From a virus (lineage: Duplodnaviria > Heunggongvirae > Uroviricota > Caudoviricetes > Straboviridae), in the IMG/VR virus record IMGVR_UViG_2974557979_000001: a DNA stretch of 64,000 nucleotides; one strand, written 5' to 3'. This document shows positions 13,770 through 64,000 of the stretch, one piece after another. Below the pieces are notes generated by a model, which saw only the letters and a program-made list of their open reading frames with translations, was not told the origin of the DNA and searched no databases. The position numbers and the translations under genes are program-made. Each line of letters begins with the position of its first letter. The first letter of the stretch is position 1.

Positions 13770-15547
13770 TAATGGCTAACTCTTATTTCAACGAAGAACA
13801 AAAGAAAAAGTTTCTGAACAGAAACAACAACAAACAACCAGCGGTCACCAAAGTAACAGCCTCCCTTGATGCTGAAAGCGCCCGTGACCTAAAGGAAATC
13901 AACGATAACACCCTTGAAAGTGCAATCAATACTCTTGATATCAAAGAAGGGTTGAAATCGTTCGAAGAAAAATTCCGTGACAAATTCGCGGGGTTCAAAG
14001 AACAATACGAAGAGGATAAAAAGGAATCATTAGCCGAACAACTACCTGATTTCGTCGGCCCGATCCGTCCTATATCCTTAACCGATGATAACTCAAAAAC
14101 TGTTGACAATACAGTAAACGTTAACCAAAATGGTCAGTTCGGTAAGCTGGAAGAAAACACCGAATCTATTTTTCATGCTATTAACAAACTTGTTGATTTA
14201 TATGAAAATACTGATAAGCATAAGCCGCTTCCTGAACCAGTGGAAGAACCCGATCCGTATGTAGACACTAAGAAAAAACGCATCAATGATGATGATGACA
14301 AAAGAAGCAAAACTCTGGATCGTATTGCTAAAAGTCTGGTATCTATTAAAGGCTTTACATCGCAGATCCTTAGCCGTTTCATTGGTTACTCTCTGGAAGC
14401 AATGGCAAAGTTTGCTAAATGGACGCTCCTTATTGGTTCGTTAATCTTTACATTCGATGTGTTGCGCGTCACAATACGCAAATGGTTCGAAGATATCCTG
14501 AAAGAAGGGGAATCCTCAAAAAAACTATTTGGTACATATCTGGGTAACGTAAAGGCTATCGTAACAAAGATCGAAGAAGGTTTGAACAACTTTAATATGA
14601 ACAACTTAGGCGAATCACTTCGTGACTTGTTCGTTGAGCCTATGAAGTTATTGGGGCAAACTGTACAAACGGCAATCACTGAGGGTATCGGTCGTCTTAT
14701 TCAATCATTGGGTGAATCAACTGGTATAGACAGCATTACCAATGCCGGACGCGGAATGCAGATCACCGCTTTACGTGATAAACAGAAATTTGGTCTTGAA
14801 TTGACTAAAGAAGATATTCTTATGATCAAGAAACAGGAACTAGAAGACCAAAAAGCGGCATTAGAAAAAGAAGATAAAGCTATTGCAGCACGTCATGCAT
14901 TAACAATAACTCCTTCTCAAATTCCTAATGGTTCTATCTATAAAGTTGCTCCTACTGATTATCAAGAAAGAAATCAGAAAACCGTAGATGCTGATAAAGA
15001 ACGGCTTGATAATATGAAGAAAGCAACGGAAGAAATGCAGAAACAATACGATTTAGCTAAAAGCAGCGAAGAGGAAGCACAAAAATTAGCCGATGAGGAA
15101 AACAAACGCAACCGCGCACGTATAGAAGAAGCAAAAAGGTTAGAACAAGCGAGGAAGGAAGGAAAACAGCCGCCAGAAGGTGAAGAGAAAAAGGGTGATG
15201 ATCTGTTGGGTAAAGCAACCAACTATGCTAACTCTGAAAATCTGGATGCAGCCGATATCAAATACATTAACGATGAACTGTTGGATCAGCTTGAAAAACG
15301 TCGTAATGAAGGTAATCTGGACGATGTACAGAAGGATAGAATCTCTGACCTTATCGAGCAATTGCAAAACAAGATTGCAGCCCGTACAGAATCCAGCACC
15401 CCGATCGACGCACAGCCACCGTTAGCAGCAAATAAACCGGATGCTGATAAAGCAAGCAACATTCAGGTTAACAACAAAACTGTTAACAACAACGTAACTC
15501 ATTCAGTACAACGCACAGAGCATAAACCGCTCGTAGCGCTGGCATAA
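13766..15547 (+). CDS. 29: baseplate hub/tail-length determinator gp29-like
   Basis: 593 aa (T4 gp29 is about 590), long coiled-coil Lys/Glu-rich regions, position between gp28 and gp48. Confidence 0.55.
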   Translation: MIMANSYFNEEQKKKFLNRNNNKQPAVTKVTASLDAESARDLKEINDNTLESAINTLDIKEGLKSFEEKFRDKFAGFKEQYEEDKKESLAEQLPDFVGPIRPISLTDDNSKTVDNTVNVNQNGQFGKLEENTESIFHAINKLVDLYENTDKHKPLPEPVEEPDPYVDTKKKRINDDDDKRSKTLDRIAKSLVSIKGFTSQILSRFIGYSLEAMAKFAKWTLLIGSLIFTFDVLRVTIRKWFEDILKEGESSKKLFGTYLGNVKAIVTKIEEGLNNFNMNNLGESLRDLFVEPMKLLGQTVQTAITEGIGRLIQSLGESTGIDSITNAGRGMQITALRDKQKFGLELTKEDILMIKKQELEDQKAALEKEDKAIAARHALTITPSQIPNGSIYKVAPTDYQERNQKTVDADKERLDNMKKATEEMQKQYDLAKSSEEEAQKLADEENKRNRARIEEAKRLEQARKEGKQPPEGEEKKGDDLLGKATNYANSENLDAADIKYINDELLDQLEKRRNEGNLDDVQKDRISDLIEQLQNKIAARTESSTPIDAQPPLAANKPDADKASNIQVNNKTVNNNVTHSVQRTEHKPLVALA

Positions 15548-21910: not shown

Positions 21911-24127
21911 TTAGAGTTTAACTTCTTTTTCTTCCAGAACGATTGTGCAATCAAATTTCACATCTTTCCAGAATTCCGCTGCAACGATATCTGTTGCGGT
22001 AACGCTTACGCTGGTTTCTTCAAAATCCAGATCCGCAAACCATGCGTGTCCGACGACAATACCGTACATTACACGACTCAGGCGATTATTAAGGGCGCGA
22101 ACCTCTTTAATAGTTTCCTTTGTCTGCTTATCAAGATACTCGATCAGGTCATTCTTGTCAAGCGCTTCGATCTCTTTAGATACAGTATCATAAGCCCACA
22201 GAATGATCAGGTCGCCATTGTTGAGTTTCTTCTTACCTTCGGCGCGTTTTGCAACGGTAGCAGCAACAGCCGGAAGTGATGAAACGCCTTTGATTTTCAC
22301 GTTCAGTTCTTTCGACATGTAAACATCAGTCGATTCTGTGCGCTCAACCTTCGGAGAAAAGCCGTAATCACGGATCCCTTGCTCAGACAACCATTCACCA
22401 GCCGCCTCACCAAAGCGCTGTTTAAGCCCTTCTGCGTTGCGTAAACCAATCGCGTTATCACGGAAGAACTTCATTACCTTCTGACGGCCTTTCAGGATTT
22501 CCAGACGGACGTTATCAGCAACAAATTCCTTACCAGAAATACCGCGAGTCATCGAACGGTTAACCAGAGGCAGAGAGGTAAAGTCAACCAGTACAGACAT
22601 ACGGTCTTCACCAATTTTAGCCAGCGGTTTGATAGTCAGACCAGAAGCACGTAAGTTTTTCAGAGTCGGGATATCGGTTTCCAGCGGAAGTACCTTAACG
22701 TTAACGATACCATCTTTAACAATGGTAAAGTTACGCACTTGTTTGGTTTCTACTTTTTCCGGCAATCCAAACTCTTTTTGTTTGCTTTCCGGAATGGTTA
22801 CGTAACCTTGTAGATCCGTATTGATAGAAATGTTCGGACGGGAACTGTTACCCACCAGGTGTTTCACTGCAACTTTCGTCGTGGTTTGGGTAAATTCCGG
22901 TTTCCATACTTCATGCGCTACCAGTTGCGCCGCCAGTGCTTTACGTTCTTCCGGAGTAGAAGCGTTTGCAATCTGTTCTGACAGTTTATCCAGTGTATCA
23001 TCATCTTTCTGGACAGTCTGACGGCCTGTACGATTGTACGCCCAGTGTTCAGAAGACAGGTCGATCACTGTGTCGGTTTCTGCCAGCAGTTCGAGAGCAT
23101 CAACCAGAGTAAACGCGTTTTCATCAGGAACCATGTTGTAATCAACACCATCCATCAGACGTTTAGCCGGATCAACAACCGCTTCGGAGATCATATCTTT
23201 AGCGTTGGAATAATCCTGTTTGGTAAAGCAGTTATCGTATGCTTTAATCAGACGCACATCACCCAGCTTTTTCAGAACTTTCCATGCCAGATCTGGATTC
23301 ATGGTATGAAGCGCATGATACAGAACCACATACAGAACCTGTTCACCTTCTGCTGTTGCCGGATCGAAGCCGTCAACGTCATTGATCGCGTTTTCACCCA
23401 GCGCCCAAATGTTTTTGATATGTTCCGGAACCAGAACAACACCATTTGCAGCATTCAGGACATACACACGGCCTTCATCCAGGTAGATCGCATGAGTTGC
23501 ATCGCCAACTTTGACTTCAACACGTGCGGAGGTTTGCGCGGTAATGATTTCATCAAATGCAGGTACATACGCATCAAACCCTTCAACGAATTTGTGTAAT
23601 GCGTTGGTTGCTTCCGCCATTTTTTCCAGCAGAGGACGGTTTACATAATAACCATATTCCAGGAAAGCAATGTTGTTAAACGTCAACGGCAGAGTAGAAC
23701 ACGCTTTCAGGATGTCATCAGTACGCCAGCAGTTATCATAACCATCAGTCAGGAAGATCAGACTGTTCAGATTGCCATTATCCGCTTGCAGATCGGTAGC
23801 GACTTCAACCGCCAGTTGCAGAGGTTCAACGAAGCCAGTACATCCGGTCGGACGCAGATAACGATCGATAGCATCATTGATTTTGCTCAGGTCGGATACA
23901 GAGCTAACCTTTTCGCCCACGAATACAGAACCGAACTGACCACGGCTGGAGAAATACAGAATAGATACGGTATCATCCTGCTTAACCAGCGTTGCCAGGT
24001 TGTTTTTCAGGTGCTGACGAATGCGCGGGAGTTCGTTATACATCGATCCGGATACGTCACAAACAAAAACGTGGTTAGTCGGGGTTGGTTTGGCTACGGC
24101 GTTTTTGAATTCAATGTTAGTGATCAT
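21911..24127 (-). CDS. von Willebrand factor A (vWA) domain protein, 738 aa
   Basis: N-terminal MIDAS-like DVSGSM ... FLTDGYDN pattern typical of vWA domains; long C-terminal region with no recognisable motifs. Confidence 0.65.
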   Translation of the reverse strand: MITNIEFKNAVAKPTPTNHVFVCDVSGSMYNELPRIRQHLKNNLATLVKQDDTVSILYFSSRGQFGSVFVGEKVSSVSDLSKINDAIDRYLRPTGCTGFVEPLQLAVEVATDLQADNGNLNSLIFLTDGYDNCWRTDDILKACSTLPLTFNNIAFLEYGYYVNRPLLEKMAEATNALHKFVEGFDAYVPAFDEIITAQTSARVEVKVGDATHAIYLDEGRVYVLNAANGVVLVPEHIKNIWALGENAINDVDGFDPATAEGEQVLYVVLYHALHTMNPDLAWKVLKKLGDVRLIKAYDNCFTKQDYSNAKDMISEAVVDPAKRLMDGVDYNMVPDENAFTLVDALELLAETDTVIDLSSEHWAYNRTGRQTVQKDDDTLDKLSEQIANASTPEERKALAAQLVAHEVWKPEFTQTTTKVAVKHLVGNSSRPNISINTDLQGYVTIPESKQKEFGLPEKVETKQVRNFTIVKDGIVNVKVLPLETDIPTLKNLRASGLTIKPLAKIGEDRMSVLVDFTSLPLVNRSMTRGISGKEFVADNVRLEILKGRQKVMKFFRDNAIGLRNAEGLKQRFGEAAGEWLSEQGIRDYGFSPKVERTESTDVYMSKELNVKIKGVSSLPAVAATVAKRAEGKKKLNNGDLIILWAYDTVSKEIEALDKNDLIEYLDKQTKETIKEVRALNNRLSRVMYGIVVGHAWFADLDFEETSVSVTATDIVAAEFWKDVKFDCTIVLEEKEVKL

Positions 24128-59267: not shown

Positions 59268-59317
59268 TGCGTAAATCCTAAATAGAATAATATAACGTTT
59301 AGATAGGGGAACTTATC

Positions 59318-59872
59318 GTGCTATTTTCATACTTCCCGCCTGTTGATTACAAAGGCACCCAGACAACTGATATTTTCCGAGACTATCGATTTTATTTTAA
59401 TCGTGTGATTGGAAAATATAAAACCCGTAGTTACCAGATAACAGGCACACTACGACCTGAACAACTTGCAGAATCATTATATGGAAACCAGCAATACTAC
59501 TGGATCCTGTTGATGCTTAACTCTGTTTATGACCCTTTCTATGGTTGGATCTCCGATCAGGAAGCCGCGTATCAGTGCGCTATACAGCGTTATTCTGAGG
59601 TTGGCGGTGAACAGGTTCTGTATCACGTAGATGAAAACAACAACAAGTATTATAACCTTGTCGAAGACCCCAATAACCCTGGTCATTGGTATGACAAAGG
59701 TGACAAACCAATGCTGTATTTACAGTATCAAGGTGTATTAGCTCCTGTAGATATTTATGAAGATGCAGTGTTGCAAAATGAAGCAAAACGAACAATAAAA
59801 ATCATTAGTCCGTCTGACATCCAGGCGTTTCTGAATGATTTTATTAAAGAAATGGAAAAGGCTAACTCATGA
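59318..59872 (+). CDS. 53: baseplate wedge protein gp53
   Basis: GTG start after GGGGA; TDIFRDYRFYF, LAESLYGNQQYYWILLMLNSVYDPFYGWISDQEAAYQ, VLYHVDENNNKYYNL match T4 gp53. Confidence 0.9.
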   Translation: MLFSYFPPVDYKGTQTTDIFRDYRFYFNRVIGKYKTRSYQITGTLRPEQLAESLYGNQQYYWILLMLNSVYDPFYGWISDQEAAYQCAIQRYSEVGGEQVLYHVDENNNKYYNLVEDPNNPGHWYDKGDKPMLYLQYQGVLAPVDIYEDAVLQNEAKRTIKIISPSDIQAFLNDFIKEMEKANS

Positions 59873-61638
59873 AATTAGGCGGAAATTTACACTCACCTTT
59901 CTTTGACGGGGTGGTTGAAAACGTTGATGATCCGCGCGGGTTGGGCCGTGTTCAAGTCCGTGTATTTGGACAACACCCAGCCCAAAAACAAAAATCCGAT
60001 GCAATCGGTGTTCCTGTTGAAGATTTACCCTGGATGATGCCTATTCAGGATATTAGAAGCGCTGCGATCTCTGGTGTGGGCTTCTCTCCAACTGGTATCA
60101 CTCGCGGATCCTTTGTTGTTGGTTATTGGCGTGACAAATGGCACCAAGATGGTATGATAATCGGTACTGTCGCTGGTGAATATGTCGAACAACCAGACAC
60201 ACAGAAAGGTTTTTGCGATCCTATGGGTGAATACCCTCGCTATGTTGGTAACGATGTTAACTCCCTTGCATTAGGTGGTTTGAAAGGCAAAGGATCATCA
60301 AGTGTCATCATTCGTGATTCAAACACAAGCATAGCAGTAAACCCAGACGATCGCCCACTGGATGAGATACCAGAAGATAACCGCCCTGATACGGGTGGAT
60401 TTACGATCGAAAAGATGCTCAAGCAGGATGAGGGGATCCGTACACGCTGGTATACAGACAGTGAAGGATATCCGACAATCGGGATCGGGCATTTGCTTAT
60501 CCGCGAAAAGACTCGCGACACTGCAAAAATTAACGCTGCGATCAGTAAAGCGGTAGGTCGAGAAGTAACAAACGGGACAATCACGGCAGAAGAGGTATCA
60601 ACCTTATTTGCTCAAGATTTAGCCAAAGTAAGATCTGATATTCAGAGAACCGCTAACGTCCGTGAAGTGTATGTGAACCTAAACCGTCCTCGTCAAATGG
60701 CGATCGAAAACATGTCGTTTCAAATGGGCGTCGGTGGTGTTGCTAAATTCACCAATACCCTAAAAGCGATGAAAAATGAAGATTGGCAAGCGGCTTATAA
60801 TGGTCTTCGAAATTCACTGTGGGCTAGTCAAACTCCAGGCCGTTCTTCTCGCGTGTCTAAAATCGTCCTCACGGGCAACCTTGAATCATATGGGGTGCAA
60901 GTACCAGATCCGGAAGGGCGCTCTCTGAGTGCTGCTTACGCTGCGTATAACGGTGCTACATTGTCGGCTACTAGTCCGGAAGATCCGTTTACTCCTGGTG
61001 ATACCCGTGTGATGTTTGAAGAACCAGCATCATCTTATAATGCGGAATATCCGTATAACATGGTGTTTGAATCGAGATCCGGACACATTCAGGAATTCGA
61101 TGATACCCCAGGATACGAACGATATAACCGTGTTCACCCAGCAGGGAGTTACGAAGAAATTCGCCCGGATGGAACCCGCGTTGTTAAAATCGTAGGGGAT
61201 GATTATCAGATCGTGATGCAGGGCCGGAAACTCAACGTTAAAGGCAACTTACAGGTAGTTATTGAAGGCGATGCGTTCATTTACAACATGGGTAACGTTC
61301 AACAAACGGTTGATGGTAACGTAACTGAATTTGTTCGTGGAAACGTTCAACAAACGGTTGAAGGTGAGTACGTTGGCCTGATTAAAGGCAATGCTGAACT
61401 AACTGTAAACAAAGATGCAACAGTTAACGTTGATCAGAATCTTACCGCAAATGTGAAACAGAATGCAACCGTTGCTGTAACAGAAGACGCAACGGTCACT
61501 GCAAAAAATGCGAAAATTGAGATTGAAGAAACGATGGATATCGGTGCTAAAGATATCAATATCAAAGCAACGAATAACACGTTTATTGATTCTGGCGCAT
61601 TAACAAAAATCACTGGCGGCACAGTACAGGTAGGCTAA
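59869..61638 (+). CDS. 5: baseplate hub / tail lysozyme gp5
   Basis: N-terminal OB domain, T4-lysozyme-like domain (GIRTRWYTDSEGYPTIGIGHLL), C-terminal beta-helix repeats (VxGNxxxTV); ATGA overlap with gp53. Confidence 0.92.
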   Translation: MKLGGNLHSPFFDGVVENVDDPRGLGRVQVRVFGQHPAQKQKSDAIGVPVEDLPWMMPIQDIRSAAISGVGFSPTGITRGSFVVGYWRDKWHQDGMIIGTVAGEYVEQPDTQKGFCDPMGEYPRYVGNDVNSLALGGLKGKGSSSVIIRDSNTSIAVNPDDRPLDEIPEDNRPDTGGFTIEKMLKQDEGIRTRWYTDSEGYPTIGIGHLLIREKTRDTAKINAAISKAVGREVTNGTITAEEVSTLFAQDLAKVRSDIQRTANVREVYVNLNRPRQMAIENMSFQMGVGGVAKFTNTLKAMKNEDWQAAYNGLRNSLWASQTPGRSSRVSKIVLTGNLESYGVQVPDPEGRSLSAAYAAYNGATLSATSPEDPFTPGDTRVMFEEPASSYNAEYPYNMVFESRSGHIQEFDDTPGYERYNRVHPAGSYEEIRPDGTRVVKIVGDDYQIVMQGRKLNVKGNLQVVIEGDAFIYNMGNVQQTVDGNVTEFVRGNVQQTVEGEYVGLIKGNAELTVNKDATVNVDQNLTANVKQNATVAVTEDATVTAKNAKIEIEETMDIGAKDINIKATNNTFIDSGALTKITGGTVQVG

Positions 61639-61639
61639 C

Positions 61640-63706
61640 ATGATTATGGATTATGAATCAATAATTGATGGAATTATGCAAAATTATCAGCATCCTTGTG
61701 ATGCTGAGATCCCCGCTGGCTATTATCGGCGGGTTATCTGGCAAGGGCATACAGAAAATTATCCGGCTGTTGGGGTTGAGTGGGATACCGAGATAATCAA
61801 AATCGGTACTCATCTTTATACTCAAGAACCATTCGGACATAGAAGCACGGATCTACCTGTTGTCAATTCACCAGGAACAGATCCAAATACCGGACAATCA
61901 ACAGGGATCCTTGTTCCGAAGATTGGCTATTATTTCAACACTCAAGCAGAAATTGATGCTTACATTACATCTATTGGTGCAACTAAAATCAATGGTGGTA
62001 ATGATTGGTATGGCGCGGATCTGTCAAAATCAAACCTATACAAAAACCCTGGCGAACTGGCTATGTATAAGGTCGAAAACAGTGGTGGGTATCTTTCCGG
62101 AACAAACCCTGTATGTGATGCTCGCATACGTCAGACGTATAATCAGGACACTGGCGCATTCACCAATATTGATTATTATTGGAATGGTAATCGTATAGCC
62201 TATATGAAGCATGATGAAACAGGGGCGCATCAATGCAAATATACGGGTATGCAGGTTAACACCAACGCAGATACAAGCATTCCTCCTGTTCCTCCTGCAA
62301 TGCCTTCCACTTATGGGGCATTACCGAGTGAATTAAGCCGTGCTGATATTTCGTGCATTCCGGCAACTGTTGGTTTCGCATATACAAATATCAGTGATGC
62401 TATGTTACAGGCATGGAACGAAACCCGTAATACGTTCAAGCTACAGTTTAACATGTTAACGGGTGCTGTACAGAATGGATTCGGGATCGCGACAATGTTT
62501 GATGGTTTATCCGTATCGATGGAAGAAGTAATGGCGGGGGCGCTCGCATTGTCACAGCAAGCATGGCAAACTGCTATGAAAGTTTTCAGACAAGTGATTA
62601 GCGCTGCATTTAACATTATCGGTGGTGCATGGGGATTGATTAATCAGTTCTTGCCTCAAGTAACCATCTTAGGTGTTGCGATCAACATTTACGATCTGGT
62701 GTTTGGTGATAATTCTGTTCAGACTTTGAAAGATGCGTTTAATGCAATCATCAAATCCGGACAACAAACATATGAAACCGTCATAAACGCAATATACGGG
62801 GCCATAGGAAGCGCATACAATTACTCTGTGGAATATGTCAAAGCTGGCGCTCGCGACCTTGTGGATGCTTGTAGCGCGTTATTTGATTGGTGTTTAACGA
62901 TGTTCCAAAACGGTTGCGTTGCATTAATCGACTTATACGGTCGGATCATGCAAACATGGGCTATCCCTCCGGAAGTCCCAAACCCGTTATGGTCTGCGGT
63001 GCTGGCTATCCGTAACATCATGATGCAAATCAAACCACTTGATATAATTCTGGGCGGTAACTTCCCTGGATTCACTGCAATGGATTTGTATCAACAAGCA
63101 CAGGAAAAAGTCAAGGCTTTTGTTGATGAGTCATACGAACAGATCCGAGGGCTTTATGAACAGGGGCAGGAACTTTACAAAACGTTAAAAAATCAGATTT
63201 TCGAACGTGATACAATTCAGAGAAAATTCAACCAGTACTTAAACTGGATGTGGGGCGCTGTAACAGACGAAGCAACAGCGGCTTATCAATCTGCATTGGA
63301 TACTGCAAACGCTGCTGTAGCTGCAACACAGGCCGCGTATGACTCTATACAGGAACAGATTGGATCTCTACAAGATGCAATGAAAGATACATACAGCATG
63401 GCGATGGAAGAATTAAAGAAATTGCCTTTGATGAGTACAATAAACGAGTTTTTAGGCTTCTGTGGTGTCGCATTTGACGATCTTCTCAAGTCATATGAAA
63501 ATGCGATTACTGGTGCTCAGTCTCTGTACAAAAATTTCATTGATAGTTCGCGCTCTTTTAAAGATCACTGCAAAGTAATCTATAACCAAATTTGTACGTT
63601 GGCGTTGAGTAAAGTCACACAATATGTGAATAAATTGCTGTCTCTCATAGGATTAGCAATCAACTTTGGTTCTATTAGTGTATGTGTTCCAGTACTGAAA
63701 TACTAA
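61640..63706 (+). CDS. large hypothetical protein (688 aa) in the gp5.1-5.4 slot
   Basis: Starts 1 nt after the gp5 stop and ends at the gp6 late-promoter motif; hydrophobic central segments (GAWGLINQFLPQVTILGVAINIYDLVF) and a helical Ala/Gln-rich C-terminal half; no PAAR motif. Confidence 0.6.
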   Translation: MIMDYESIIDGIMQNYQHPCDAEIPAGYYRRVIWQGHTENYPAVGVEWDTEIIKIGTHLYTQEPFGHRSTDLPVVNSPGTDPNTGQSTGILVPKIGYYFNTQAEIDAYITSIGATKINGGNDWYGADLSKSNLYKNPGELAMYKVENSGGYLSGTNPVCDARIRQTYNQDTGAFTNIDYYWNGNRIAYMKHDETGAHQCKYTGMQVNTNADTSIPPVPPAMPSTYGALPSELSRADISCIPATVGFAYTNISDAMLQAWNETRNTFKLQFNMLTGAVQNGFGIATMFDGLSVSMEEVMAGALALSQQAWQTAMKVFRQVISAAFNIIGGAWGLINQFLPQVTILGVAINIYDLVFGDNSVQTLKDAFNAIIKSGQQTYETVINAIYGAIGSAYNYSVEYVKAGARDLVDACSALFDWCLTMFQNGCVALIDLYGRIMQTWAIPPEVPNPLWSAVLAIRNIMMQIKPLDIILGGNFPGFTAMDLYQQAQEKVKAFVDESYEQIRGLYEQGQELYKTLKNQIFERDTIQRKFNQYLNWMWGAVTDEATAAYQSALDTANAAVAATQAAYDSIQEQIGSLQDAMKDTYSMAMEELKKLPLMSTINEFLGFCGVAFDDLLKSYENAITGAQSLYKNFIDSSRSFKDHCKVIYNQICTLALSKVTQYVNKLLSLIGLAINFGSISVCVPVLKY

Positions 63707-63737
63707 ATAGTCGAATGATCAAGAGGAATTTATAATA

Positions 63738-64000
63738 ATGGCTACTGCTAAGACTAAGACTGTCAAAAAACAGATTAACCAAATCCCCGATATCTTTATC
63801 GGGGGTACTTTCGAAGAAATTAAAACAGATCTGATTGATTGGCTGGGTGGACAAGAAGAGTTTAAGGATTACGATTTTTCCGGCTCGCGAATGAACGTAC
63901 TGATCGACCTTCTGTCGTATGCTACTCTTTATATTCAGCAGATGGGTAACACAGCTCTATTTGAATCGTTTATTCGCACGGCTGCATTGCGTAGTTCTGT
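63738..64000 (+). CDS. 6: baseplate wedge protein gp6 (3' partial)
   Basis: IPDIFIGGTFEEIKTDLIDWLGGQEEFKDYDFSGSRMNVL matches T4 gp6 IPEIFVGGTFAEIKQNLIEWLNGQNEFLDYDFEGSRLNVL; runs off the window. Confidence 0.88.
   Translation, partial: MATAKTKTVKKQINQIPDIFIGGTFEEIKTDLIDWLGGQEEFKDYDFSGSRMNVLIDLLSYATLYIQQMGNTALFESFIRTAALRSS

What the first reader, a model, noticed from the sequence alone, without database searches (positions are those of the whole stretch)
61640..63706. 688 aa ORF occupying the gp5.1-5.4/PAAR slot between gp5 and gp6
In T4 the interval between gene 5 and gene 6 holds small genes 5.1-5.4, and gp5.4 is the PAAR spike tip capping the gp5 beta-helix. Here a single 688 aa ORF starts 1 nt after the gp5 stop, so it is translationally coupled, and it ends inside the CTAAATAG motif before gp6. 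It has no PAAR-type repeats. It has hydrophobic stretches (for example GAWGLINQFLPQVTILGVAINIYDLVFGD) and a long helical Ala/Gln-rich C-terminal half. Its position and its coupling to the tail-spike gene suggest a spike-associated or ejected protein, perhaps a membrane-active or effector-like cargo, unlike anything at this locus in T4.
Basis: partly seen in the sequence, partly recalled or inferred. Interest (0 to 1): 0.75.

Follow-up and report, generated by a model that had tools for sequence, protein, structure and literature searches.

The report
Large spike-tip protein replacing PAAR
This 688-residue gene of Klebsiella phage Matisse is very probably the cap on the phage's membrane-piercing spike, taking the place of T4's small PAAR tip; the same idea was already published for its close relatives in phages RB43 and Helios, so it is real and interesting but not new.

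Summary
The window is Klebsiella phage Matisse (Slopekvirus). A 688-aa ORF (61640-63706) starts one nucleotide after the gp5 stop codon and ends inside a CTAAATAG motif upstream of gp6.

The ORF is a 78%-identical ortholog of RB43 orf205w. A 2025 preprint proposed orf205w as an unusual spike-tip protein, from a 17.7 A cryo-EM map showing a larger tip. A 2026 paper modelled the Slopekvirus Helios counterpart (gp203).

My independent tests agree with that reading:
- Matisse and Bp7 have no gp5.4 (PAAR) or gp5.1 homolog anywhere in their genomes.
- The gene always directly follows gene 5, even where gp6 is not downstream.
- Every partner gp5 (9 of 9) has a distinct C-terminus ending ..GGTVQVG.
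- 217 phage records carry that C-terminus and 217 carry the ORF.
- The protein diverges at about the same rate as gp5.

The "membrane-active or effector cargo" idea has no specific support. Virion presence and copy number remain unproven biochemically.

The parts
59278..59284 (+). CTAAATA motif 40 nt upstream of gp53. It is a likely late promoter for the 53-5-ORF688 transcription unit (inferred).
   Evidence: One search gives the seven CTAAATA sites; at least five lie 17-47 nt upstream of structural or late genes in the correct orientation. One search gives the sequence. T4's late promoter consensus TATAAATA is from established knowledge.
59318..59872 (+). gp53 baseplate wedge subunit, the first gene of the unit.
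   Evidence: Pfam Phage_gp53, 4.5e-64.
59869..61638 (+). gp5 baseplate hub, tail lysozyme and central spike (589 aa).
   Evidence: Pfam Gp5_OB, Phage_lysozyme and Gp5_C. It is 50% identical to T4 gp5.
61426..61635 (+). Class-specific C-terminal beta-helix tip of gp5 (about the last 70 aa, ending LTKITGGTVQVG). This is the proposed docking platform for ORF688.
   Evidence: The region is 40-71% identical among gp5s that are followed by an ORF688 homolog, and 10-26% identical to gp5.4-type gp5s. The terminal motif is present in 9 of 9 partners. 217 records carry it.
61628..61631 (+). Shine-Dalgarno-like AGGT inside the last gp5 codons (CAG GTA GGC, coding Q-V-G), 8 nt upstream of the ATG. It indicates translational coupling.
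   Evidence: Sequence, annotated RBS in NC_028750, and conserved tight junctions TAAcATG / TAAtcATG / TAAtATG / ATAATG in other genera.
61640..63706 (+). ORF688 (CPT_Matisse200), the putative spike-tip (cap) protein; ortholog of RB43 orf205w and Helios gp203; family phrog_5296.
61640..62269 (+). N-terminal alpha/beta globular domain (aa 1 to about 210) with invariant Cys20, Cys199 and the WYGADLSK motif. It has no known fold.
62516..62620 (+). Core helix 1 (aa 293-327) of the intramolecular three-helix bundle.
   Evidence: AF2 model. It coincides with Phe287-Ile327 of the published Helios gp203 model.
62624..62710 (+).
   Evidence: Kyte-Doolittle 19-residue window 1.60 (family mean 1.32); conservation 3.4 bits for aa 321-340 and 2.9 for aa 341-360. 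Predicted strands 341-343 and 346-348.
62846..62959 (+). Core helix 2 (aa 403-440).
   Evidence: equals Glu398-Trp440 in Helios gp203.
62966..63079 (+). Most conserved segment, PPEVPNPLW...SGNFPGFTA (aa 443-480).
   Evidence: Invariant P444, N448, P449, G473, P476 and F478; 3.15-3.55 bits.
63077..63379 (+). Long, sequence-variable helical hairpin (aa 480-580). It is probably the distal projection, and it is the source of the spurious tape-measure, apolipoprotein and CW_7 hits.
   Evidence: Helices 480-534 and 543-580; lowest conservation, 1.6-2.4 bits.
63545..63643 (+). Core helix 3 (aa 636-668), containing KDxCK..LSKVTQ(W/Y)VNKLL.
   Evidence: equals Lys631-Ile670 in Helios gp203; 3.1-3.5 bits.
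63644..63703 (+). Hydrophobic C-terminal tail and strand (aa 669-688, with near-invariant Cys682-x-Pro684). It directly follows core helix 3, whose end the published model places next to gp5's last strand, so it is a candidate part of the gp5-binding base (inferred).
   Evidence: Kyte-Doolittle 1.91; strand 678-687; the C-terminal 60 aa are the best-conserved part across genera; Helios interface description.
63703..63710 (+). CTAAATAG motif overlapping the ORF688 stop codon, 35 nt upstream of gp6. It is a likely separate late promoter for gp6 (inferred).
63738..64000 (+). N-terminus of gp6 baseplate wedge subunit (runs off the end of the window).
   Evidence: Pfam Gp6-like_1st, 8e-36.
13772..15547 (+). 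The phage's genuine gp29 tape-measure/hub protein (591 aa), located in the gp27-28-29-48-54 cluster. It shows that ORF688 is not the tail-length determinator.
   Evidence: Annotation of NC_028750 record positions 60474-62249 (window coordinate = record coordinate minus 46702). No similarity to ORF688.

Best explanation
ORF688 is a late-expressed virion structural protein. It caps the blunt C-terminal end of the trimeric gp5 beta-helix spike and replaces the gp5.1 + gp5.4 (PAAR) module of T4.

Proposed mechanism:
- It is made from the same late transcript as gp53 and gp5 and is translationally coupled to gp5.
- A single chain (copy number unproven) folds around an intramolecular three-helix bundle (helices about 293-327, 403-440 and 636-668) that lies coaxial with the spike.
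- The conserved hydrophobic elements that follow these helices, in particular the C-terminal tail, form the base that docks onto a gp5 tip of a matching, class-specific type (...TKITGGTVQVG).
- The variable helical hairpin (aa 480-580) and the novel N-terminal domain make up the enlarged tip.
- On sheath contraction this assembly is the first part of the phage to meet and breach the outer membrane. It is then released with the gp5 beta-helix into the periplasm.

What is shown: gene order, coupling geometry, absence of PAAR, co-variation with the gp5 tip, and fold prediction. What comes from the literature on orthologs: a larger tip density in RB43 and an AlphaFold3 docking model for Helios. 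What is inferred: virion location in Matisse, stoichiometry, and the role in penetration.
For: 1. Orthology. The protein is 78% identical over its full length to RB43 orf205w and matches phrog_5296 end to end.
2. Literature. RB43-group phages lack gene 5.4. A 17.7 A cryo-EM map of the RB43 baseplate shows a larger object on the spike tip into which an orf205w model fits. An AlphaFold3 model of the Slopekvirus Helios gp202 trimer with gp203 shows a hydrophobic contact with gp5's last strand and a triple coiled-coil core. My independent AF2 model (pLDDT 87.8, pTM 0.78) has helices at the same positions.
3. No gp5.4 or gp5.1 homolog exists in the complete Matisse genome (best E 0.16) or the complete Bp7 genome (best E 1.8 and 1.2) in six-frame profile scans. 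All positive controls were recovered.
4. The gene directly follows gene 5 in Slopekvirus, Pseudotevenvirus, Dhakavirus, Bragavirus, Nanhuvirus and four metagenomic contigs. This includes cases where gp6 is not downstream and one case where gp5 lacks the lysozyme domain.
5. All 9 partner gp5 proteins share a distinct C-terminus ending (T/S)G(G/A)(T/N)V(Q/S/V)VG. Bp7's gp5 body is T4-like (63% identity) while its tip belongs to this class.
6. 217 phage records carry that gp5 C-terminus and 217 carry the ORF, with matching genus counts.
7. The protein diverges at about the same rate as gp5 (r = 0.80 over 21 pairs), and its C-terminal 60 aa are its best-conserved part.
8. Stop/start junctions of 0-2 nt, or overlapping, are conserved, and late-promoter-like motifs flank the 53-5-ORF688 unit.
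Against: There is no direct biochemical evidence for any family member. I found no virion mass-spectrometry detection: the proteomics papers I checked concerned other genera, failed to detect even gp5, or analysed only visible gel bands. The RB43 map is 17.7 A and C6-symmetrised, so it cannot identify the protein or count its copies. [quoted passage not shown] However, gp5-beta is defined in that paper as T4 gp5 residues 484-575, which my comparison puts in the other tip class, so that failure may not be informative. My Pfam PAAR scan of the small ORFs was inconclusive because the output was truncated. I could not model the complex or inspect coordinates myself. The record-level identity of the two sets of 217 records was not checked. 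The three 'helix plus hydrophobic segment' units show no detectable internal repeat (HHalign probability 7% or less), so pseudo-threefold symmetry rests only on the models.
Confidence: 0.72

Rival explanations
1. Spike-carried, membrane-active or ejected cargo. The protein rides on or near gp5, but its main job comes after penetration. It would refold and insert its hydrophobic segments and long amphipathic helices into the outer or inner membrane, or span the periplasm, to help form the DNA conduit. This would resemble ejection proteins, tape-measure proteins or alpha-pore-forming toxins.
Against: The hydrophobic segments are among the most conserved parts of a confidently folded model, where they are predicted as beta strands. 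The published complex model places the end of the third core helix (to Ile670) next to gp5's last strand. The helical matches are generic: HlyD, prefoldin and designed bundles score just as well. The tape-measure hits lie outside the TMP-defining domains. [quoted passage not shown] No test here distinguishes a post-release role.
Confidence: 0.12
2. Non-virion assembly factor. A gp5-specific chaperone or scaffold caps the beta-helix during hub assembly and is removed before or at virion completion. The larger tip seen in RB43 would then be something else.
For: Tight gene linkage and co-variation with the gp5 C-terminus would also be expected of a dedicated chaperone. No virion proteomics has detected the protein. 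T4 does use non-structural assembly catalysts for the hub and fibers (gp51, gp57A; established knowledge).
Against: These phages have no other candidate tip protein, since there is no gp5.4 or gp5.1. RB43 virions do carry extra density at the tip, of a size compatible with this protein. A 77-kDa chaperone for a roughly 100-residue beta-helix end would be unusual.
Confidence: 0.06
3. A second tape-measure-like or tube-lumen protein, as annotated in several GenBank records ('tail length tape measure protein').
For: PHROG families annotated as tape measure match aa 250-657 weakly. Several records carry that product name. The C-terminal two thirds are helical.
Against: Matisse and Bp7 each have a genuine gp29 in the canonical 27-28-29-48-54 cluster. 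There is no similarity to gp29 (tblastn nothing; HHalign probability 0.1%). No Pfam TMP domain was found. The weak hits from 1.84 billion proteins align only to generic apolipoprotein-like helical repeats outside PhageMin_Tail and TMP_3. Foldseek finds tape-measure proteins only at E above 0.2. The model is a compact folded protein with a globular N-terminal domain, not an extended chain.
Confidence: 0.03

Closest known systems
RB43 orf205w / Klebsiella phage Helios gp203 (putative large spike-tip protein of some Straboviridae; phrog_5296)
   Same: It is an ortholog: 78% identical over its full length to RB43 orf205w. It has the same position after gene 5, the same length (688 versus 690 aa), and the same predicted architecture, with the triple-helix core at the same residues as in Helios gp203.
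   Different: Nothing of substance differs. The Matisse protein has simply not been discussed by name. This work adds several points: a wider distribution (Dhakavirus within Tevenvirinae, Bragavirus, Nanhuvirus, metagenomic relatives down to 32% identity); the rule linking it to the gp5 C-terminus at database scale; genome-wide absence of gp5.4 and gp5.1 in two genomes; and the lack of any known fold for the N-terminal domain.
T4 gp5.4 and T6SS PAAR spike-tip proteins
   Same: It has the same genomic slot and the same proposed job. A protein, modelled as a single chain, caps the blunt end of a trimeric beta-helical spike through a hydrophobic base and extends it to a point.
   Different: There is no sequence, profile or fold similarity. 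It is about seven times larger (688 versus 97 aa). It is built from a helical bundle plus a novel alpha/beta domain rather than a small beta-cone. It requires a different gp5 C-terminus with one extra strand (preprint).
T4 gp5.1 (small conserved partner gene of 5.4)
   Same: gp5.1 and gp5.4 form a conserved pair right after gene 5 in gp5.4-type phages. Both are missing wherever ORF688 is present. The Helios paper speculates that the large protein is an analog of a gp5.1/gp5.4 complex.
   Different: There is no detectable similarity (HHalign probability 0.1%). The function of gp5.1 is itself unknown.
Phage P1 UpfB alpha-helical tripod on the PAAR protein UpfC
   Same: It is another alpha-helical extension mounted on a myophage spike tip, with a loop at the distal end. 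The Helios paper cites it as a parallel.
   Different: In P1 a PAAR protein is retained and three UpfB copies attach to it, whereas here there is no PAAR protein. No P1-like record appeared among the 100 listed rows of the 217 tblastn hits, and 213 of the 217 hits are full-length. A direct profile comparison with UpfB was not run.
Tail tape measure proteins (T4 gp29; siphovirus TMPs)
   Same: Both have long amphipathic helices with an Ala/Gln-rich composition, which gives weak profile hits.
   Different: It lacks the TMP-defining domains, coexists with a genuine gp29, sits in a different gene neighbourhood, and has a compact predicted fold.

Membership tests
RB43 orf205w-type large spike-tip protein (phrog_5296) | Full-length sequence homology to RB43 orf205w | tested here: met
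   78.3% identity over residues 1-687. phrog_5296 matches residues 3-688 against profile positions 1-685 of 685, E = 0.
RB43 orf205w-type large spike-tip protein (phrog_5296) | The gene lies immediately downstream of gene 5, in the slot of T4 genes 5.1-5.4 | tested here: met
   One nucleotide separates the gp5 stop from the start codon. The same arrangement is seen in RB43, Bp7, PM2, LPCS28 and four metagenomic contigs.
RB43 orf205w-type large spike-tip protein (phrog_5296) | The genome lacks a gp5.4 (PAAR) ortholog | tested here: met
   A gp5.4 profile scanned against the six-frame translation of the complete 176,081-bp Matisse genome gave a best E of 0.16, with controls at 1e-40 to 1e-51. 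tblastn was also negative. The Pfam PAAR scan was inconclusive because the list was truncated.
RB43 orf205w-type large spike-tip protein (phrog_5296) | The partner gp5 has the divergent C-terminal beta-helix end, one strand longer | tested here: met
   Matisse gp5 ends LTKITGGTVQVG, the same as RB43. The last 70 alignment columns are 71% identical to RB43 and 16% identical to T4.
RB43 orf205w-type large spike-tip protein (phrog_5296) | The protein is physically located on the tip of the gp5 spike in the virion | not testable with these tools
   The only data are a 17.7 A map of RB43 and AlphaFold models in the literature. I found no proteomics for any member.
PAAR / T4 gp5.4 | PAAR-domain sequence signature (Pfam PAAR_motif, gp5.4 family profile) | tested here: not met
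   No Pfam hit at E 0.1 or better. HHalign of the family against a gp5.4 alignment gave probability 0.0%.
PAAR / T4 gp5.4 | Small (about 100 aa) cone-shaped beta fold | tested here: not met
PAAR / T4 gp5.4 | Binds the blunt end of a trimeric beta-helical spike as a single chain | not testable with these tools
   This is suggested by the published AlphaFold3 model and by the co-variation with the gp5 tip. It has not been demonstrated.
Tail tape measure protein | TMP-defining domain (T4 gp29 homology, PhageMin_Tail, TMP_2 or TMP_3) | tested here: not met
   No such Pfam hit. HHalign against Matisse gp29 gave probability 0.1%. The weak library hits align outside the TMP domains.
Tail tape measure protein | It is the phage's tail-length determinator, encoded with the tube and hub initiator genes | tested here: not met
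   A separate 591-aa gp29 sits in the 27-28-29-48-54 cluster at window 13772-15547. Bp7 likewise has its own gp29.
CW_7 (Cpl-7) cell-wall-binding repeat | A conserved CW_7 repeat matching the family profile | tested here: not met
   A single-sequence PDB hit (5i8l) aligns to aa 491-536, with per-repeat E values of 0.26-5. That region is the most variable in the family. The hit disappears when the family profile is used, and there is no Pfam CW_7 hit.

The most novel reading that the evidence does not exclude
The large tip may be more than a passive sharpening cone. It could be a deployable device: the conserved hydrophobic hairpin, the long variable helical hairpin and the fold-less N-terminal domain (with invariant cysteines) might recognise or remodel the envelope. 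Possible roles include binding LPS or an outer-membrane component, or refolding after release to insert into a membrane and help form the DNA conduit. That would make it a phage counterpart of effector-bearing T6SS spike tips, and a second, non-PAAR solution to capping a beta-helical spike.
Probability: 0.12. Interest if true: 0.75.

Novelty: already known. Interest (0 to 1): 0.35.

Why it matters
Spike tips are the first part of a contractile injection machine to touch the target membrane. Until recently PAAR-type cones (and fused P2-type apexes) were the only tips known. This family shows that a substantial group of T4-like phages of Enterobacterales, including the Klebsiella slopekviruses now being developed for therapy, use a completely different tip that is about seven times larger and is matched to a different gp5 end.

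The practical consequences of this analysis are:
- About 217 GenBank records could be annotated consistently. Several currently call the gene a 'tape measure' protein.
- The ...GGTVQVG ending of gp5 is a simple predictor of which tip a phage uses.
- Binding experiments should use the cognate gp5 C-terminus, not the T4 gp5-beta fragment.

The idea itself is already in the literature. What remains valuable is the unanswered question of why such a large tip exists and what its novel N-terminal domain does.

Tried and rejected
1. Tape measure protein. Rejected: the phage has its own gp29, there is no similarity to it, and the hits are only generic helical matches.
2. Fused or divergent gp5.1 and/or gp5.4. 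Rejected by tblastn, hmmsearch and HHalign.
4. CW_7 peptidoglycan-binding repeat at aa 491-536. Judged a chance match: the region is variable, the hit is not reproduced by the family profile, and there is no Pfam hit.
5. Internal triplication underlying pseudo-threefold symmetry. Not detected: HHalign probabilities are 0.7-7%.
6. Pfam scan of 148 small Matisse ORFs for PAAR. Uninformative, because only 25 of 79 families were listed.
7. Virion proteomics in the literature (a Jiaodavirus study that mentions slopekviruses, KP15/KP27, vB_KmiM-2Di/4Dii, Morganella MP1, Karamvirus ECLFM1). None reports this protein, and none was deep enough or on the right phage to count as negative evidence.
8. Distant relatives in other systems (T6SS, eCIS, other phage families). 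None was found among 1.84 billion representatives: only 8 full-length clusters, and every member whose context I checked is next to gp5.
9. NCBIfam and PDB profile searches. Nothing meaningful.
10. Complex modelling and inspection of model coordinates.
Full report
**1. What is in the sequence**

The window is essentially identical to Klebsiella phage Matisse (NC_028750; Slopekvirus, Straboviridae). Window coordinate equals record coordinate minus 46702.

The ORF is exactly as described: 61640-63706 on the + strand, ATG start, 688 aa. It is annotated there as hypothetical protein CPT_Matisse200.
- Upstream are gp53 (59318-59872) and gp5 (59869-61638; Gp5_OB, lysozyme and Gp5_C domains). Downstream, gp6 starts at 63738.
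- The gp5 stop codon (TAA, 61636-61638) is separated from the ATG by a single base.
- An AGGT Shine-Dalgarno-like element lies inside the last gp5 codons.
- The ORF's own stop (63704-63706) lies within CTAAATAG (63703-63710).
- The T4 reference locus does contain 5.1, segC, 5.3 and 5.4 between genes 5 and 6.

**2. It is a conserved gene family tied to gene 5**

tblastn finds homologs in 217 phage records, 213 of them full-length. They come from Slopekvirus (99% identity or more), Karamvirus and Pseudotevenvirus (RB16, RB43, Miller, Lw1; about 78-81%), Nanhuvirus (46%), and Dhakavirus and Bragavirus (41-43%).

The 5.8-billion-protein collection adds Yersinia, Pantoea and Pectobacterium phages and metagenomic members down to 32% identity.

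An exhaustive profile search of 1.84 billion representatives finds only 8 full-length clusters plus fragments. The family is therefore compact.

In every context I examined, the gene directly follows gene 5. These contexts are RB43, Bp7, PM2, LPCS28 and four metagenomic contigs.
- In LPCS28 and contig L019, gp6 is not downstream at all.
- In L017, gp25 intervenes between this gene and gp6.
- In L020, the partner is a 389-aa gp5 without a lysozyme domain.

The stop/start junction is always tight: TAAcATG, TAAtcATG, TAAtATG, ATAATG overlap, or up to 6 nt. The conserved linkage is to gp5, not to gp6.

**3. It replaces the gp5.1/gp5.4 module**

gp5.4-type phages (T4, PKO111, fHyAci03, D506, phi-Grn1) carry a conserved gp5.1 + gp5.4 pair after gene 5. 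phiAS4 also encodes both proteins, in a rearranged locus.

I built profiles from these sequences and scanned every stop-free segment of 40 aa or more, in six frames, of two complete genomes.
- Matisse (176,081 bp): best E = 0.16 for gp5.4 and 1.2 for gp5.1.
- Bp7 (168,066 bp): best E = 1.8 and 1.2.
- Controls: the gp5.4 sequences used to build the profile scored 1e-40 to 1e-51, and a phiAS4 gp5.1 left out of the gp5.1 profile scored 8e-27.

A Pfam scan of 148 small Matisse ORFs was inconclusive because the family list was truncated.

The family profile has no similarity to gp5.4, gp5.1 or gp29 (HHalign probability 0.1% or less).

**4. The gp5 tip co-varies with the gene**

All nine gp5 proteins that precede a family member end in (T/S)G(G/A)(T/N)V(Q/S/V)VG, with one extra strand relative to T4.
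- Within this class, the last ~70 alignment columns are 40-71% identical.
- Between this class and gp5.4-type gp5s, the same columns are only 10-26% identical, although the rest of gp5 is 39-63% identical.
- Bp7 is a clear mosaic. Its gp5 body is closest to T4 and PKO111 (63%), but its tip belongs to the ORF688 class.

At database scale, a 109-aa query from the Matisse gp5 C-terminus matches over at least 80% of its length in 217 records. That is the same number as carry the ORF. The genus counts are nearly the same: Klebsiella 113 versus 114, Enterobacter 20/20, Cronobacter 18/18, Citrobacter 13/13, Proteus 7/7, Salmonella 4/4. A further 63 records (RB49-like phages among those listed) match only the upstream beta-helix.

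ORF688 and gp5 diverge in parallel (r = 0.80 over 21 pairs), and the C-terminal 60 residues of ORF688 are its best-conserved part.

This is the pattern expected of two proteins that touch each other and are inherited as a module.

**5. Structure**

AlphaFold2 with the 53-sequence alignment gives a confident monomer (mean pLDDT 87.8, pTM 0.78). Its parts are:
- an alpha/beta region (aa 1 to about 290);
- three long helices (293-327, 403-440, 636-668);
- a conserved hydrophobic hairpin (341-348);
- a long variable helical hairpin (480-534 and 543-580);
- a C-terminal strand (678-687).

The three long helices coincide with the 'triple coiled-coil core' (Phe287-Ile327, Glu398-Trp440, Lys631-Ile670) of the published AlphaFold3 model of Helios gp203 bound to the gp5 trimer.

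Structure searches found no specific relative.
- Foldseek against viral models finds only the family itself.

Conservation peaks at WYGADLSK, at invariant Cys20 and Cys199, at two near-invariant C-(I/V)-P strands (Cys239/Pro241 and Cys682/Pro684), at PPxVPNPxW...SGNFPGFTA, and in the C-terminal tail.

**6. What the literature already says**

A 2025 bioRxiv preprint from the Leiman and Belin groups (PMC12407873) makes four relevant statements.
- RB43, RB16 and Lw1 lack gene 5.4.
- The locus is occupied by orf205w, which encodes a protein of about 690 residues.
- A 17.7 A cryo-EM map shows a larger object on the RB43 spike tip, into which an AlphaFold model fits.

A 2026 paper (PMC13611949) models the Slopekvirus Helios gp202/gp203 complex and speculates that gp203 is an analog of gp5.1/gp5.4.

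I found no direct biochemical identification of the protein in virions.

**7. Mechanism and rivals**

The best-supported model (confidence about 0.72) is a virion spike cap that docks through its conserved hydrophobic base onto a cognate gp5 tip and enlarges or sharpens the penetrating end.

The rivals are:
- a delivered, membrane-active role after release (0.12);
- a non-virion assembly factor (0.06);
- a second tape-measure protein (0.03), which is largely refuted.

The 'membrane-active or effector' suggestion rests only on hydrophobicity (Kyte-Doolittle 1.6-1.9) and generic helical matches.

**8. Side results**

- CTAAATA sites are not enriched in number (7 observed against 10.4 expected). 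At least five of the seven lie 17-47 nt upstream of structural or late genes in the correct orientation. This suggests a late-promoter variant, a 53-5-ORF688 transcription unit, and a separate promoter for gp6.
- The CW_7 hit is a chance match.
- No internal triplication is detectable.

**9. Verdict**

The feature is real and was correctly read by the first stage. It belongs to a family whose interpretation as a non-PAAR spike tip is already published. Novelty is 'already known' and interest is moderate (0.35).

The open and testable question is why a 77-kDa tip with a fold-less N-terminal domain is used instead of a 10-kDa PAAR cone.

Noticed in passing
window 13153, 18163, 55944(-), 56752(-), 57058, 59278, 63703: CTAAATA occurs 7 times (10.4 expected by chance). 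At least five of the sites lie 17-47 nt upstream of structural or late genes in the right orientation (gp28, gp3, Matisse195, gp53, gp6). It looks like this phage group's version of the T4 late promoter TATAAATA.
   Followed up: partly
window 61618-61638: The conserved gp5 C-terminal codons for Q-V-G (CAG GTA GGC) also form the Shine-Dalgarno-like AGGTAGG for the downstream gene. A similar GGT-N-GG element is kept at the gp5 3' end in all the sampled relatives, so it may be under a dual coding and ribosome-binding constraint.
   Followed up: partly
GenBank records PP889503, PQ187642, PQ657795/6/8, PP889462 (product 'tail length tape measure'); LC589952 ('baseplate hub structural protein'): Several records give this gene a tape-measure product name, apparently from weak PHROG helical matches. 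That name is not supported.
   Followed up: yes
L008 1712-3499 (Bp7 gp5): Bp7 gp5 is a mosaic. Its body is 63% identical to T4 and PKO111 gp5, but its last ~70 alignment columns belong to the RB43/Matisse class (41-48% identity, against 22-26% to T4 and PKO111). This implies exchange of the 'gp5 tip plus tip gene' module within the Tevenvirinae.
   Followed up: partly
L019 2995-4227; L010 495-1706: In the metagenomic phage L019, an extra ORF of about 410 aa with no Pfam match lies between gp53 and gp5. In Cronobacter phage LPCS28 a 403-aa ORF lies immediately upstream of gp5. In both phages gp6 is not downstream of the tip gene.
   Followed up: no
L020 219-1388: The most distant family member (P0063, 743 aa) follows a 389-aa gp5 that lacks the lysozyme domain but still ends AIFTGGTVVVG.
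   Followed up: partly
L017 237-4970: In the contig carrying P0062 (764 aa, 32% identity), a gp25 homolog lies between the tip gene and gp6. The protein also has a C-terminal extension of about 35 residues that is rich in proline and isoleucine.
   Followed up: no
PP993148 (vB_KleM_kp20), OM971648 (CPRSA), KX130727 (phT4A): In a few records the gene is split into 2-3 pieces or is truncated (phT4A covers only aa 199-688). These could be sequencing errors, or a sign that the tip is dispensable in laboratory propagation, as T4 gene 5.4 is.
   Followed up: no
window 61697, 62234, 62354, 63569, 63683 (codons for Cys20, Cys199, Cys239, Cys644, Cys682): Five cysteines are invariant or nearly so across 53 sequences: 53/53, 53/53, 50/53, 45/53 and 50/53. 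Two of them lie in matching C-(I/V)-P strands. They could form a metal site or disulfides, by analogy with the metal-stabilised tips of PAAR proteins and P2 gpV.
   Followed up: no
window 21911-24127 (- strand): A 738-aa hypothetical protein (CPT_Matisse116) lies among small early-type genes. It is one of the largest unannotated ORFs in the window.
   Followed up: no
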